Virus record (IMG/VR): IMGVR_UViG_3300032401_000001
Span: 96,001-160,000 of that record
Source: a virus
DNA length: 64,000 nt
Reading direction: 5' to 3' (one strand)
This document shows positions 7,590 to 11,324 of this stretch, in pieces. Below the pieces are notes generated by a model. It had not been told where the DNA came from. It made no database searches and saw only the letters and a list, made by a program, of their open reading frames with translations. The position numbers and the translations under genes were made by a program. Positions within the stretch are counted from its first letter, which is position 1, and the number at the start of each line of letters is the position of its first letter.

Positions 7590-7958
7590 ATGCCCGACAC
7601 GAACCTCTACGTGGGCAACCTGCCCTGGGACATCACCAAGGAAGAGCTGGCGGCGCGCTTTGCGCAGTTCGGCGAAGTCCGTGGGGTACGCATCATCACC
7701 GACAAGGAGACGAGCCGATCGCGCGGCTTCGGTTTCGTCGAGTTCGCGCAGGCGGCCGACGCCCAGGCGGCCCTGGTCGAAGATGGCCAGGACTTCGGGG
7801 GCCGGGCGTTGCGCGTGAATCTCGCCAACCGCCAGAGCGAAGATCGACCGCGCAGCGGTAACGGCAACGGGCAGCGGCCCAAGAGCAACAGTGGCGGCGG
7901 CAAGCCCCGCGGCCACGGCGGCGGGCGTCCGCGCACGGCGTACGGCGACGAGGGCTGA
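7590..7958 (+). CDS. RRM (RNP1/RNP2) RNA-binding protein with Gly/Arg-rich tail
   Basis: RNP2 LYVGNL and RNP1 RGFGFVEF. Confidence 0.92.
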   Translation: MPDTNLYVGNLPWDITKEELAARFAQFGEVRGVRIITDKETSRSRGFGFVEFAQAADAQAALVEDGQDFGGRALRVNLANRQSEDRPRSGNGNGQRPKSNSGGGKPRGHGGGRPRTAYGDEG

Positions 7959-8133: not shown

Positions 8134-8469
8134 GGGCCTGAAACGGTTTCGACAGGGGTACAGAAGGCAGAGTAGCGTGCCGTGGTTGATCGGTGGGCCA
8201 CGTTAAAAGCCGATCAAAACCGAAAAGCGAACGACAACATCGTCCGCCAGCCCCTCCGCGCCGCGGCCTAGCCGAGGCGGGAGGAGCGGGGAAGCCCTCA
8301 GAGCTCCTGGCAACAGAAAGAGGGATGGTGGAGGCGCCGCAAGGCGCCCTGTAGCACCGGGTGAGGCTGGCCATACCGGTAACTACGCCAGCACGCCTCG
8401 CAAGAGGCTACGCACGTAGAAGCTCTACTGGAGTACTGCTGGACCCGGGTTCGACTCCCGGCAGGTCCA
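8134..8469 (+). ncRNA. ssrA: tmRNA, tag (A)ANDNIVRQPLRAAA
   Basis: GGGCCTG/CAGGTCC acceptor with G3.U70, GGTTTCGAC 5' motif, T-arm CCGGGTTCGACTCCCGG, tag frame 8227-8271. Confidence 0.95.
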
Positions 8470-8576
8470 ACTAAGCCCCGCCGGCGCGCGGTCAATCGTA
8501 TGGTAAACGCCCAGCGGCGCCGGCGGGGTGATACATTCGCTGGGCACCTCAAACTCAACATGACAGGAGCACGATC

Positions 8577-9314
8577 ATGAAGGCACAGCGGCTGAACCAG
8601 GTCATCTCCGTCGAGAAGGGCATCCGGAACAAGACCACGGAGCGCATCACGGAGCTGTATCACACCGTGCAGAAGCCGGCGCTCTTCGACGGCTTCAACA
8701 AGAAGTACCGCCCACTCGCCGAGGACGGCGAGCAGTTCCCGCCCGAGGACAAGCGGGTGCAGGTGAAGGGCATCGACGTCGTCAAGGAGCTGTTCGCGTG
8801 CATGCGCGAACTCTTCGACGTGACCCTCATCAAGGACAGCGCCAACTGCATGGCGAAGGCCGACGTGGTGGTAGGCGACAAGGTCGTCCTCAAGGACTGC
8901 CCGGCCACCTACCTGCTGTTCCTCGAGAAGCAGCTGACGGACCTCCACACCGCGATGTCGAAGATGCCGGTGCTCGACCCGGCCGAGGAGTGGGAGTTCG
9001 ACAAGAACGCGTCGCTGTACCGGACGCAGCCCGTCGAGACCGGCCGCACCAAGAAGGTGCAGAAGTCCCTGGTGCTGCTGGCGCCGACCGACAAGCACCC
9101 GGGACAGGCGCAGCTCATCACCGAGGACATGACGATCGGCTACTGGGGCACCGTGAAGTTCTCGGGGGCGATGGCACTGCCCGACAAGGAGCGGCTGCTC
9201 ATCCGCATCGAGAAGCTGCACCATGCGGTGAAGTTCGCCCGTGACGAAGCGAACACCGCCGGGGTGATCGACCGCAGCACCGAAGCGGTCTTCGACTACT
9301 TGACCAGCGCCTAG
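8577..9314 (+). CDS. conserved hypothetical protein (LNQVISVEKG...YLLFLEKQL...KFSGA family)
   Basis: 245 aa, AGGAG SD, very high GC3; resembles a widespread uncharacterised bacterial/phage family. Confidence 0.85.
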   Translation: MKAQRLNQVISVEKGIRNKTTERITELYHTVQKPALFDGFNKKYRPLAEDGEQFPPEDKRVQVKGIDVVKELFACMRELFDVTLIKDSANCMAKADVVVGDKVVLKDCPATYLLFLEKQLTDLHTAMSKMPVLDPAEEWEFDKNASLYRTQPVETGRTKKVQKSLVLLAPTDKHPGQAQLITEDMTIGYWGTVKFSGAMALPDKERLLIRIEKLHHAVKFARDEANTAGVIDRSTEAVFDYLTSA

Positions 9315-9329
9315 CGATAGGCGTACAAC

Positions 9330-9760
9330 GAGTTCAGGAGCACAAGCTCAAGCTCAAGCTCAAACTGAGAAGACCGGCGTCGGGGATACCCCCGTGGAGG
9401 TTCGAGTCCTCCGGCTCCCACTGCGTAGCGTTTTCGGGAGTCTGGCGAAATGGCAGACGCAGCCGCTGGTCGAACGTTCAAGCTCAACTTGTTGCTCCAA
9501 GCTCAAACTGGGAACGTCGACACCGAATCGAACGCGAAGCAAACCACGACGGAAACGCGGGTTCGAATCCCGCCGGGATCTCCAGGCAGTGCTGCACCCT
9601 TTGATCCTGTAGCCCAGCGGAAAGGCGCCGTCGCTCAGATCTTATCGCTTCGCTTAAATGCCGTCGGTGGCGTATGCGTTCCAGCGCAAGAGTCACCCTT
9701 GAAAGGTGAATATCTACGCACCCGGCCGGGGGAGAGGATACCTCCCTCGGCCACTTTTTT
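9330..9760 (+). ncRNA. chain of two circularly permuted tRNA-like modules with repeated linker segments
   Basis: Order is T-arm plus 3' acceptor strand, short linker, 5' acceptor strand plus D-arm, occurring twice (9372-9471 and 9547-9633). Confidence 0.7.
9724..9760 (+). terminator. intrinsic terminator
   Basis: GGCCGGGGGAG/CTCCCTCGGCC hairpin plus T-run. Confidence 0.7.
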
Positions 9761-9763
9761 AGC

Positions 9764-10472: not shown

Positions 10473-10543
10473 CCACCAGTGGCTCGAAGGTCGAGCGGCT
10501 GCCTTATGAGCGGCAGGTGAGGGTTCGATTCCTTCCTGGTGGA
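10473..10543 (+). tRNA. tRNA-Ile(UAU)
   Basis: CCACCAG/CTGGTGG acceptor; GCTGC-CTTATGA-GCGGC anticodon arm. Confidence 0.7.
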
Positions 10544-10549
10544 CTTCAT

Positions 10550-11085: not shown

Positions 11086-11156
11086 GGGGCCATCGTCCAA
11101 AGGGAAGATGCTGGTTCGGCAGACCAGAGATCGGGGTTCAATTCCCCGTGGCTCCA
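11086..11156 (+). tRNA. tRNA-Ala(GGC)
   Basis: Cloverleaf, G3.U70, C33. Confidence 0.85.
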
Positions 11157-11241
11157 CGAGAGGTAGGAGCGGGTTCGATTCCCGCCGAGGCATCGAGCGA
11201 TGGTGCTTCGTGGTGTAACCTGGCGAGCACAACCTCGTTAT
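11157..11241 (+). tRNA. circularly permuted tRNA-like element (3' half before 5' half)
   Basis: GAGGT, T-arm 11169-11185, CGAGGCA; 11 nt linker; TGCTTCG, D-arm, ACCTC; both stems pair. Confidence 0.65.
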
Positions 11242-11324
11242 GGAGAGTACTGGGGACGGTGACCCAACGCGGCTCGAACCCGCGGGCAGCCTCCGGGCTG
11301 GGCGTTCAACTCGTCTACTCTCCG
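11242..11324 (+). tRNA. tRNA-Ser(CGA), atypical Sec-like scaffold
   Basis: GGAGAGT(A)/(T)ACTCTCC, CGCGG-CTCGAAC-CCGCG, long variable arm, G73. Confidence 0.75.

What the first reader, a model, noticed from the sequence alone, without database searches (positions are those of the whole stretch)
8521..9510. Uncharacterised 245 aa protein whose 5' leader repeats the motifs of its downstream permuted-tRNA RNA: candidate protein-RNA system
Seen: CAGGAGCAC occurs at 8564-8572 (its own SD region) and again at 9335-9343, just before the CAAGCT repeats where no start codon follows. CTCAAACT occurs at 8548-8555 in the leader and within both 13-mers downstream. The gene sits between tmRNA and the tRNA array and is co-oriented with the RNA. 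Inference: the protein binds this motif, autoregulating its own leader and coating or reading the downstream RNA, as a two-component RNP acting on translation.
Basis: partly seen in the sequence, partly recalled or inferred. Interest (0 to 1): 0.75.

Follow-up and report, generated by a model that had tools for sequence, protein, structure and literature searches.

The report
DUF7873 protein with double tRNA-mimic RNA
A phage gene of unknown function (DUF7873) is followed by a folded RNA of about 425 bases carrying two anticodon-less tRNA look-alikes on a track of six-letter repeats; the same gene-RNA pair recurs in over a hundred phage and bacterial loci and is probably an undescribed RNA-protein particle, but no binding has been measured.

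Summary
CAGGAGCAC lies at 8564-8572 and 9335-9343. CTCAAACT lies at 8548-8555, 9359-9366 and 9502-9509. The 13-mer occurs twice.

The ORF (8577-9314) is a DUF7873 protein (Pfam E 3e-91). It has no solved or named structural relative and is predicted to form a symmetric homodimer.

The downstream RNA (about 9337-9762) has two YrlA-like permuted tRNA mimics. They are flanked by phased six-base repeats of the form A-R-R-Y-U-N, and the RNA ends at a terminator.

A stray T-arm lies just downstream of the gene in 114 of 124 loci sampled; controls gave 0-11. A covariance model of module 1 hit full-length only beside DUF7873: 18 of 20 carrier genomes and 0 of 41 non-carriers. Ro60-linked YrlA RNAs sit at separate loci. 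This phage has no Ro60, RtcB or Band-7 gene.

The leader claim holds in part. The repeat unit is enriched in DUF7873 leaders (38 of 49, against 26 in shuffles and 91 of 281 control leaders), usually next to the ribosome-binding site. Exact word sharing between leader and RNA is not general. CAGGAGCAC occurs six times in the window and is not specific to this locus.

Binding and autoregulation remain inference. This scan has already noted the same gene-RNA pair on other DNA many times. I found no paper on it.

The parts
8551..8562 (+).
   Evidence: enrichment of the unit in homologous leaders
8564..8572 (+). CAGGAGCAC, which contains the ribosome-binding site (GGAG at 8566-8569, 7 nt before the ATG)
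   Evidence: 6 copies in the window, so not locus-specific
8577..9314 (+). DUF7873 gene, 245 aa
   Evidence: Pfam PF25283 E 3e-91. AlphaFold2 model pLDDT 96.8. Homodimer prediction 0.67 against 0.00 for the best control.
9337..9346 (+). 5' strand of closing helix P1 (GGAGCA + CAAG). It pairs with 9488-9498 (CTTG, bulged T, TGCTCC).
   Evidence: minimum-free-energy fold; GAGC/GCUC conserved in alignments A2 and A3, with no covariation because it is nearly invariant
9344..9367 (+). Four phased six-base repeats: AAGCTC x3, then AAACTG
   Evidence: the only run of three or more in the 198-kb genome
9372..9471 (+). tRNA mimic 1. Stem GACCGGCG (9372-9379) with CGCTGGTC (9464-9471); variable-arm hairpin; T-arm 9396-9412; acceptor 3' strand 9413-9419; capping loop; acceptor 5' strand 9436-9442; D-arm.
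   Evidence: compensatory changes in T, acceptor and D stems; stem test; model R1 hit at 9341-9526, 64.5 bits, E 1.8e-11
9480..9510 (+). Repeats AAGCTC and AACTTG (9480-9491), the 3' strand of P1 (9488-9498), then repeats AAGCTC and AAACTG (9499-9510)
9521..9669 (+). tRNA mimic 2. Outer stem CACCGA (9521-9526) with TCGGTG (9664-9669); conserved internal loop AATCGAAC / CTTAAAT; stem GCGAAGC (9534-9540) with GCTTCGC (9647-9653); T-arm 9557-9573; acceptor 9574-9580 with 9603-9609, its loop starting TCCA; D-arm 9610-9627.
   Evidence: Rfam YrlA 31.6 bits over the full model; fold; conserved features and outer-stem covariation read
9724..9762 (+). Terminal hairpin plus T-run that ends the unit. 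Its loop carries GGATAC, a motif that recurs in the equivalent hairpins of other loci.
   Evidence: sequences

Best explanation
The ORF encodes a DUF7873 protein. The sequence downstream is one structured non-coding RNA of about 425 nt, most likely co-transcribed with the gene and ended by the terminator at 9724-9762.

The RNA carries two anticodon-less, circularly permuted tRNA mimics built like YrlA-type Y RNAs. They sit on single-stranded tracks of phased six-base repeats (A-R-R-Y-U-N; here AAGCUC and AAACUG). Gene plus RNA is a self-contained module that is inherited together in phages and bacteria and does not depend on Ro60.

Inferred mechanism: DUF7873, a symmetric homodimer, binds the repeat tracks, possibly one dimer per pair of repeats. 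This would give a particle that displays two tRNA-shaped heads.

Copies of the same repeat next to the ribosome-binding site of the gene's own mRNA would let free protein repress its own translation, while the RNA titrates the protein. The logic resembles CsrA/CsrB or TRAP.

Shown here: the family assignment, the RNA structure, the conserved and reciprocal linkage, the repeat phasing, and the leader enrichment.

Inferred only: binding, dimer-per-repeat geometry, feedback, and what the particle does.
For: Family: Pfam DUF7873, E 3e-91. The family has 2260 clusters at 50% identity.

RNA structure: the T-arm, 7-bp acceptor stem and D-stem keep pairing through compensatory changes in 14 of 15 pairs. 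The stem standing in for the anticodon stem is 5 bp or longer in 46% of loci, against 12% of cross-locus controls, p 2e-5. Rfam YrlA matches over the full model at 27-40 bits downstream of DUF7873 in actinophages, Streptomyces, Actinospica, and Klebsiella, Rhizobium and Ralstonia phages.

Linkage: free T-arms within 450 nt downstream on the gene strand number 146, in 84 of 93 loci. Controls gave 4 (opposite strand), 11 (upstream, same strand), 0 (upstream, opposite strand) and 1 (inside the gene). In a distant clade the figure is 30 of 31 loci, with controls 2 and 0. Model R1 hit full-length in 77 of 93 loci, all on the + strand.

Reciprocity: full-length R1 hits occur in 18 of 20 DUF7873-positive genomes, always beside the gene, and in 0 of 41 negative genomes. 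Ro60-adjacent YrlA RNAs give only partial hits, at other loci of the same genomes.

Independence: no TROVE, RtcB or Band-7 gene in this phage. Bacterial neighbours are unrelated genes.

Repeats: 148 against 45 expected in the 5' flank. Spacings peak at 6, 12 and 18 (61, 44 and 22 cases).

Leaders: a perfect repeat unit occurs in 38 of 49 DUF7873 leaders against 91 of 281 control leaders, Fisher p 3e-9. Shuffles give 26.0 +/- 3.1, and 0 of 1000 reach 38. Perfect tandem pairs: 6 against 0.65.

Dimer: score 0.67 against best control 0.00, runs agree in at least 97% of contacts, partner pLDDT at least 87. The mark was reached by 20 of 30 proteins solved as pairs of one chain and 1 of 23 solved as single chains; these counts hold only roughly because my own alignment was used.

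No terminator lies between gene and RNA; one follows the RNA.
Against:
- Synteny does not prove contact.
- Leader enrichment is partial and the loci are not fully independent. Exact leader/RNA word sharing is not significant overall (combined p 0.29-0.71).
- Streptomyces and Actinospica leaders show no clear tandem repeats.
- The phiRSL1 clade uses a different repeat (AGCGUU) that is absent from its leader.
- A few loci (L032, L033) have no RNA directly downstream.
- The protein has no recognisable RNA-binding fold.
- An earlier check within this scan (e1-2703945) priced direct protein-RNA partnership at only 22 in 100.
Confidence: 0.45

Rival explanations
1. Linked but not bound. The RNA is a tRNA-shaped decoy or scaffold for host factors such as RNase P, tRNA-modifying enzymes, PNPase or tRNA-targeting nucleases. 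DUF7873 acts in the same pathway, perhaps as an enzyme, without binding the repeat track. The repeats would then serve RNA folding or another factor.
For: - The tRNA mimicry is very good, and YrlA RNAs are substrates of tRNA enzymes (PMC4201824).
- In phages the module usually lies in tRNA clusters.
- The protein has conserved polar residues (H174, D184, E117, K118, R222, E223, N226) that could be catalytic.
- It has no known RNA-binding fold.
Against: - The full RNA model is never found without the gene.
- In L034 the repeat tracks are kept although tRNA body 1 is replaced by a short hairpin.
- The same repeat is enriched in the gene's own leader, which a host-factor-only model does not predict.
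Confidence: 0.25
2. The leader resemblance in this phage is coincidence. CAGGAGCAC is only a ribosome-binding-site word and CTCAAACT is a chance 8-mer, so there is no autoregulation, whatever the protein and RNA do together.
For: - CAGGAGCAC has 6 copies in the window.
- A different 9-mer, GCCCAGCGG, is also shared by the 80-nt leader and the RNA.
- Leader/RNA word sharing is not significant across 49 loci.
- Only one perfect repeat unit lies in this leader.
Against: - All three CTCAAACT copies in the 64-kb window lie in this locus.
- The repeat unit is enriched in homologous leaders by two independent controls.
- In several loci two or three phased units abut the ribosome-binding site: L050, L102, L100, L038 and L086.
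Confidence: 0.4
3. These are ordinary YrlA Y RNAs that work with the host's Ro60 (Rsr), and DUF7873 is an accessory.
For: - Same permuted tRNA-like architecture, with sub-threshold full-length YrlA matches.
- 10 of 20 DUF7873-positive actinomycete genomes also encode a TROVE protein, against 21 of 281 negatives.
Against: - No TROVE gene in this phage, Racecar, Phendrix or KpLz-2_45.
- Half of the carrier genomes lack TROVE.
- Where both exist they are never adjacent, and Ro60 has its own YrlA beside it.
- Scores are far below the Rfam threshold (31.6 against 69).
Confidence: 0.08
4. A second, permuted tmRNA-like or otherwise translated RNA, in which the six-base repeats encode a (Lys/Arg)-(Leu/Phe) repeat tag.
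For: - The repeats read as AAG-CUC, AGA-CUG and similar, that is, basic-hydrophobic codon pairs in one frame.
- Many acceptor loops start with NCCA.
- Weak hits to permuted tmRNA models.
Against: - No start or resume codon.
- The frame runs on into the T-arm without a stop.
- The phase shifts by one base after UCGCUC(C).
- CCA is not conserved.
- Module 1 here has G3-C70, not the G3-U70 alanine mark.
- The repeats lie 5' of the tRNA-like body, unlike two-piece tmRNA.
- The phage already has a standard tmRNA.
Confidence: 0.02
5. A type III toxin-antitoxin-like pair, in which DUF7873 is harmful when free and the repeat RNA neutralises it.
For: - A two-part protein plus repeat-RNA module.
- Patchy distribution (20 of 301 genomes) in varying chromosomal contexts and in phages.
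Against: - No match to defence-system models.
- The gene order is opposite to ToxIN-type loci.
- The repeats are 6 nt rather than about 35 nt.
- The elaborate tRNA mimicry is left unexplained.
Confidence: 0.05

Closest known systems
YrlA-type bacterial and phage Y RNAs with Ro60/Rsr (Rfam RF02553; Chen et al. 2014, PMC4201824; Wang et al. 2018, bioRxiv 10.1101/312249)
   Same: Each module has the same permuted layout: stem strand, variable region, T-arm, loop-capped acceptor stem, D-arm, stem strand, with no anticodon loop. Tandem copies occur. They are found in phages and bacteria. They lie next to the gene of a presumed protein partner.
   Different: - The partner gene is DUF7873 (245 aa, unknown fold), not the Ro60 ring.
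- No TROVE gene in this genome.
- Scores are well below the family threshold.
- The two modules are joined in one RNA of about 425 nt, with phased six-base repeat tracks, a GAGC/GCUC helix, a conserved AAUCGA/CUUAAA internal loop and a conserved terminal hairpin loop. None of these is described for YrlA.
- Both systems coexist at separate loci in the same genomes.
CsrA/CsrB (RsmA/RsmZ) and TRAP: proteins that read short repeated RNA motifs
   Same: Works-like comparison only. A small oligomeric protein, many copies of a short motif in a non-coding RNA, and copies of the motif next to a ribosome-binding site. CsrA represses its own translation in this way. TRAP reads triplets spaced 5-6 nt apart.
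   Different: No sequence or fold relationship was found. The motif is different. Binding is untested. The RNA also carries tRNA mimics.
Two-piece (permuted) tmRNA
   Same: A circularly permuted tRNA-like domain with the T-arm and acceptor 3' strand placed before the acceptor 5' strand. Some loops begin with CCA. Weak partial hits to permuted tmRNA models.
   Different: No tag reading frame with a stop, no alanine identity pair in this copy, CCA not conserved, and the repeats lie on the wrong side. A standard tmRNA is present at 8134-8472.
SPFH/Band-7-associated tRNA-like RNA of RNA-repair operons (Burroughs and Aravind 2016, NAR 44:8525; recalled from memory, paper not held)
   Same: The idea of a tRNA-like RNA that works with a scaffold protein other than Ro60.
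   Different: The partner is different. This phage has no Band-7 or RtcB gene. I could not read the paper to compare the RNAs.

Membership tests
Pfam DUF7873 (PF25283) | Full-length match above the curated cut-off (27 bits) | tested here: met
   305.9 bits, E 3e-91, residues 4-243 on profile positions 2-242 of 244
YrlA (Rfam RF02553) | Score at or above the gathering threshold (69 bits) | tested here: not met
   31.6 bits for 9525-9654; homologous loci score 27-40 bits
YrlA (Rfam RF02553) | Permuted tRNA-like domain: T-arm, loop-capped acceptor stem, D-arm, closed by a stem | tested here: met
   Both modules show it. Compensatory changes occur in 14 of 15 pairs. Stem test.
YrlA (Rfam RF02553) | Encoded within about 4 kb of a Ro60/Rsr (TROVE) gene, the criterion used by Chen et al. 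2014 | tested here: not met
   No TROVE match in the 198-kb genome. In bacteria the DUF7873 RNA and TROVE are never adjacent.
YrlA (Rfam RF02553) | Ro60-binding helix formed by the 5' and 3' ends | not testable with these tools
   End-pairing helices exist (9337-9346 with 9488-9498; 9521-9526 with 9664-9669). Whether Ro60 binds them needs an experiment.
Two-piece tmRNA | Tag reading frame ending in a stop codon | tested here: not met
   The repeat frame runs into the T-arm with no stop, and the phase shifts after UCGCUC
Two-piece tmRNA | Alanine identity (G3-U70) and a conserved CCA end | tested here: not met
   Module 1 pairs G3 with C70. Acceptor loops in relatives read ACTCGA, TCTCGT, ATACGG and similar, so CCA is not conserved.
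Known anti-phage defence systems (PADLOC) | Match to any model | tested here: not met
   0 families at E up to 1

The most novel reading that the evidence does not exclude
DUF7873 dimers line up on the six-base repeat tracks and form a new class of Ro60-independent ribonucleoprotein that presents two tRNA-shaped heads to tRNA-handling machinery. The dose of the particle would be set by Csr-like feedback through the same repeat in the gene's own leader. Phages would carry it in their tRNA clusters to protect or manage the tRNA pool during infection.
Probability: 0.3. Interest if true: 0.85.

Novelty: new variant of a known kind. Interest (0 to 1): 0.66.

Why it matters
Y RNAs are known only as partners of Ro60. 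A second, widespread protein family with its own dedicated double tRNA mimic would show that tRNA-shaped scaffolds are a more general way to build RNA-protein machines. DUF7873 has thousands of clusters and occurs in phages of actinomycetes, cyanobacteria and proteobacteria as well as in bacterial chromosomes.

It would also give function to a large family of unknown proteins and to an RNA that is absent from Rfam. The repeat motif and the leader copies make the idea directly testable with short RNA oligos and reporter fusions in tractable phage-host pairs such as Gordonia, Arthrobacter and Streptomyces.

Tried and rejected
- Structure searches with the pLDDT 96.8 model found nothing. Foldseek against the PDB gave nothing at E 0.001 or better; the best hits were Cas7 chains at E 0.03 with TM 0.14. 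VIA-align against 48,161 chains gave a best Z of 8.8, all helical bundles at background level. The ESM Atlas search found only DUF7873 itself. The Atlas feature search gave no usable hit.
- Sequence searches also found nothing: PDB with a profile, 0 hits at E 10; PHROGs only E 0.028; NCBIfam and PADLOC nothing.
- Literature: 'DUF7873' is in 0 papers. Searches for YrlA with phage, Y RNA with tRNA-like, and permuted tRNA with phage returned nothing on this pair. Burroughs and Aravind 2016 is not held.
- The search for related loci in genome contigs with the single protein gave only 2 loci. The Vibrio phage protein as query gave none.
- The exact-word test of leader against RNA was negative overall.
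- A search of the phage genome for further runs of the repeat, as a possible regulon, found none beyond the RNA itself. Two-unit runs number 14 and 10 per strand against about 8.5 expected.
- The coding and tmRNA readings of the repeats were rejected; see the rival explanations.
- The fold of module 2 alone is no more stable than shuffles (z 0.24). Module 1 gives z -2.61.
Full report
**Setting.** The window is bases 96001-160000 of a 197,792-bp, 63% G+C virus record that CheckV rates complete. Around the finding lie, all on the + strand:
- an RRM-type protein gene (7590-7958);
- a tmRNA (8134-8472, Rfam 112.8 bits);
- the 245-aa ORF (8577-9314);
- about 450 nt with no credible ORF;
- 38 tRNA genes from 10049 onward.

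**Observation.**
- CAGGAGCAC occurs 6 times in the window against about 1 expected. It contains AGGAG. At 8564-8572 it is the ribosome-binding site of the ORF, so the 9-mer is not specific to this locus.
- CTCAAACT occurs only three times in 64 kb and all three copies are in this locus.
- The 13-mer CAAGCTCAAACTG occurs twice (0 expected).
- Against dinucleotide shuffles of the leader, sharing a 9-mer with the repeat regions of the RNA has a frequency of about 0.02.

**The protein.**
- The ORF is a full-length member of Pfam DUF7873 (E 3e-91).
- The family is large: 3596 hits among 90% clusters and 2260 clusters at 50% identity. Members are all about 245 aa with a single domain.
- It occurs in Streptomyces, Longispora and other actinomycete chromosomes. 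It also occurs in phages of Arthrobacter, Gordonia, Rhodococcus, Pseudanabaena, Microcoleus, Rhizobium, Vibrio, Klebsiella and Ralstonia.
- An AlphaFold2 model from a 68-sequence alignment is very confident (pLDDT 96.8). It shows four long helices plus a sheet with a long beta-hairpin.
- No solved or named structure resembles it. It matches no defence, NCBIfam or informative PHROG model.
- A two-copy prediction gave a large symmetric interface: score 0.67 against 0.00 for the best of three controls, runs agreeing in at least 97% of contacts, partner pLDDT at least 87. That mark was reached by 20 of 30 proteins solved as pairs of one chain and by 1 of 23 solved as single chains. The counts hold only roughly because my own alignment was used. 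Strand 37-48 pairs with strand 186-199 of the other copy, which places the invariant G39 and G188 at the interface.

**The RNA in the window.** From about 9337 to the terminator at 9724-9762 the sequence reads as one structured RNA.

Module 1:
- A closing helix, 9337-9346 with 9488-9498. This is where the second CAGGAGCAC lies, so there it is a helix strand and not a ribosome-binding site.
- Four phased six-base repeats at 9344-9367.
- A stem, 9372-9379 with 9464-9471.
- A variable-arm hairpin, a T-arm (9396-9412), a 7-bp acceptor stem capped by a loop (9413-9419 with 9436-9442) and a D-arm.
- Two more repeats at 9480-9491, and two more after the helix at 9499-9510.

Module 2:
- An outer stem, 9521-9526 with 9664-9669.
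- An internal loop with AATCGAAC on one side and CTTAAAT on the other.
- A second stem, 9534-9540 with 9647-9653.
- A T-arm (9557-9573).
- An acceptor stem (9574-9580 with 9603-9609) whose loop begins TCCA.
- A D-arm.

Rfam's YrlA model matches module 2 over its full length at 31.6 bits, below the 69-bit threshold.

**Is the RNA real and conserved?**
- In an alignment of 29 homologous regions the T, acceptor and D stems keep pairing through compensatory changes in 14 of 15 pairs.
- The stem that replaces the anticodon stem is 5 bp or longer in 46% of loci, against 12% of cross-locus controls (p 2e-5).
- The outer stem of module 2 covaries by inspection: CACCGA/TCGGTG here, CGCCAG/CTGGCG, TGCCAG/CTGGCA and CCCCGA/TCGGGG elsewhere.
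- A GGATA-type loop recurs in the terminal hairpin.

**Linkage of gene and RNA.** I collected 93 DUF7873 loci: 80 IMG/VR contigs, 9 GenBank phages, 3 bacterial loci and the window.
- T-arms that belong to no ARAGORN tRNA occur 146 times in the 450 nt downstream on the gene's strand, in 84 of 93 loci. Controls gave 4 on the opposite strand, 11 and 0 upstream, and 1 inside the gene.
- The T-arms typically come as a pair about 150 nt apart.
- A second sample around the distant phiRSL1 protein (28-68% identity to it, about 26% to ours) gave 30 of 31 loci, with controls of 2 and 0.
- A covariance model of module 1 with its repeat flanks (R1) hit full-length in 77 of 93 loci, always on the + strand and downstream of the gene.

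**Reciprocity.**
- In a sample of 301 actinomycete genomes, 20 carry DUF7873 and 31 carry a TROVE (Ro60) protein. Ten carry both, and the two genes are never adjacent.
- R1 was searched in the 20 carriers and 41 non-carriers. Full-length hits occurred in 18 of 20 carriers, each directly downstream of the gene, and in 0 of 41 non-carriers.
- The tRNA-like core of the model also picked up short hits right beside TROVE genes. These are the canonical YrlA RNAs.
- Several genomes therefore hold both systems at separate loci.
- This phage has no TROVE, RtcB or Band-7 gene. Racecar, Phendrix and KpLz-2_45 also lack TROVE.
- Bacterial neighbours of the pair are unrelated from genus to genus.
- The conserved unit is thus the gene plus its RNA and nothing else.

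**The six-base repeats.**
- Across 49 non-redundant loci this unit occurs 148 times in the 48 nt before the stem of module 1, against 45 expected. Spacings are 6, 12 and 18 (61, 44 and 22 cases).
- It occurs 104 times against 42 expected between the modules, where the phase slips by one base across the conserved UCGCUC(C).
- The A at position 1 and the U at position 5 are invariant alignment columns.
- The repeats on both sides of the tRNA body have the same sense, so they do not pair with each other.
- In L034 the tRNA body of module 1 is replaced by a small hairpin but the repeats stay.
- In the phiRSL1 clade the unit is AGCGUU.
- In this phage's genome, the RNA holds the only run of three or more units.

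**The leader.** This is the specific point of the finding.
- Exact word sharing between each gene's leader and its own RNA is not significant overall. Only 4 of 49 loci have p below 0.05, and the combined p is 0.29-0.71.
- There are striking single cases: an 11-mer in Phendrix/GodonK, and the 9-mer here.
- The repeat unit itself is enriched in leaders. A perfect unit lies in the last 45 nt before the start in 38 of 49 DUF7873 genes, against 91 of 281 other genes with a ribosome-binding site in the same loci (Fisher p 3e-9).
- Two phased units with at most one deviation occur in 14 of 49 against 19 of 281 (p 4e-5).
- Against dinucleotide shuffles of the leaders, the 38 observed compare with 26.0 +/- 3.1, and 0 of 1000 shuffles reach 38. 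For perfect tandems the figures are 6 against 0.65, again 0 of 1000.
- Where tandems occur they end 8-16 nt before the start codon, abutting the ribosome-binding site.
- The window has one perfect unit (8551-8556) followed by a near-unit.
- The effect is real but partial. The loci are related to varying degrees, and the high-G+C bacterial leaders show little of it.

**Interpretation.** The most economical reading is a dedicated RNA-protein pair. A dimeric DUF7873 would read the repeat tracks of an RNA that displays two tRNA mimics, and copies of the repeat next to the gene's own ribosome-binding site would provide feedback. The RNA would titrate the protein, as CsrB does for CsrA.
- Solid: the conserved, reciprocal, Ro60-independent linkage.
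- Inference: contact, stoichiometry and feedback.
- Unknown: what the particle does.

The tRNA-cluster setting in phages hints at tRNA handling, but that setting is absent in bacteria.

The tmRNA-like or translated reading is rejected. There is no stop codon, the phase slips, CCA is not conserved, this copy has G3-C70, and the repeats lie on the wrong side. The plain Ro60/Y RNA reading is unlikely for the reasons given under reciprocity.

**Relation to earlier notes of this scan.**
- The same gene-RNA pair has been noted many times on other DNA: 169 notes in at least 100 genomes.
- Follow-up reports reached the same description, including a track of six-letter repeats (e1-5633710).
- A later check of e1-2703945 kept the observation at 90 in 100 and priced direct partnership at 22 in 100.
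- That check mentions a word-pattern count of only 17.8% of genes with the RNA and a later fold test of 20 of 21. My counts (114 of 124 by T-arm, 18 of 20 by covariance model) agree with the fold test.
- New here: the cross-locus test of the leader motif, the reciprocal model search that separates this RNA from Ro60-linked YrlA in the same genomes, and the homodimer prediction.
- I found no publication on the pair.

Noticed in passing
window 7590-7958 (+): An RRM-type RNA-binding protein with a glycine/arginine-rich tail lies just upstream of the tmRNA. NCBIfam 'RNA-binding regulator' scores 82.9 bits, below its 100-bit cut-off.
   Followed up: partly
window 8134-8472 (+): Phage tmRNA (Rfam 112.8 bits; tag ADQNRKANDNIVRQPLRAAA), followed by a 12-bp G+C-rich hairpin (about 8476-8530) with no T-run, directly before the DUF7873 leader. 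Phendrix also has a tmRNA upstream of its DUF7873 gene (L012 2063-2591).
   Followed up: partly
window 11142-11260 (+): The YrlA model gives a full-length 20.8-bit match between tRNA-Ala(GGC) and tRNA-Ser(CGA). Another first-stage note reads a permuted tRNA at 11157-11241. It may be only the junction of two tRNAs.
   Followed up: no
window 9724-9752; L010, L011, L012, L014, L015, L016 terminal hairpins: The hairpin that ends the RNA carries a recurring loop motif (GGATAC, GGATATG, GGACA) across phages and bacteria, so it is probably more than a terminator.
   Followed up: no
L034 3229-3480: A variant RNA in which the tRNA body of module 1 is replaced by a short hairpin. The six-base repeats, GUCGCUCC and module 2 are kept.
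   Followed up: partly
L126-L139 (phiRSL1 clade); L022 3850-3890: This clade has the T-arms but no A-R-R-Y-U-N tandems. phiRSL1 instead shows AGCGTT/AGCGTA repeats at the same place, a possible change of repeat flavour.
   Followed up: partly
L023/L024 and L029/L030, between gene and RNA: About 350-430 nt carrying small ORFs (one looks like an HNH nuclease) are inserted between the DUF7873 stop codon and the RNA. L032 and L033 have no RNA directly downstream.
   Followed up: partly
Actinomycete genomes (for example G259:C8:99631-99690, G024:C4:644349-644408, G300:C1:5076727-5076782): Hits of 56-60 nt (41-45 bits) to the tRNA-like core of model R1 that lie beside neither DUF7873 nor TROVE. They could be tandem identical tRNAs or a third class of tRNA mimic.
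   Followed up: no
L011 5380-6252 (Rhodococcus phage NiceHouse): A Band-7-like membrane protein gene lies about 0.6 kb downstream of the DUF7873 RNA, after one tRNA. Band-7 proteins have been linked to a tRNA-like RNA in RNA-repair operons (recalled from Burroughs and Aravind 2016, not read here). This phage has no Band-7 gene.
   Followed up: partly
window 10473-10544 (+): tRNA-Ile with anticodon UAU in the array. The same occurs in Racecar and Phendrix near their DUF7873 loci.
   Followed up: no
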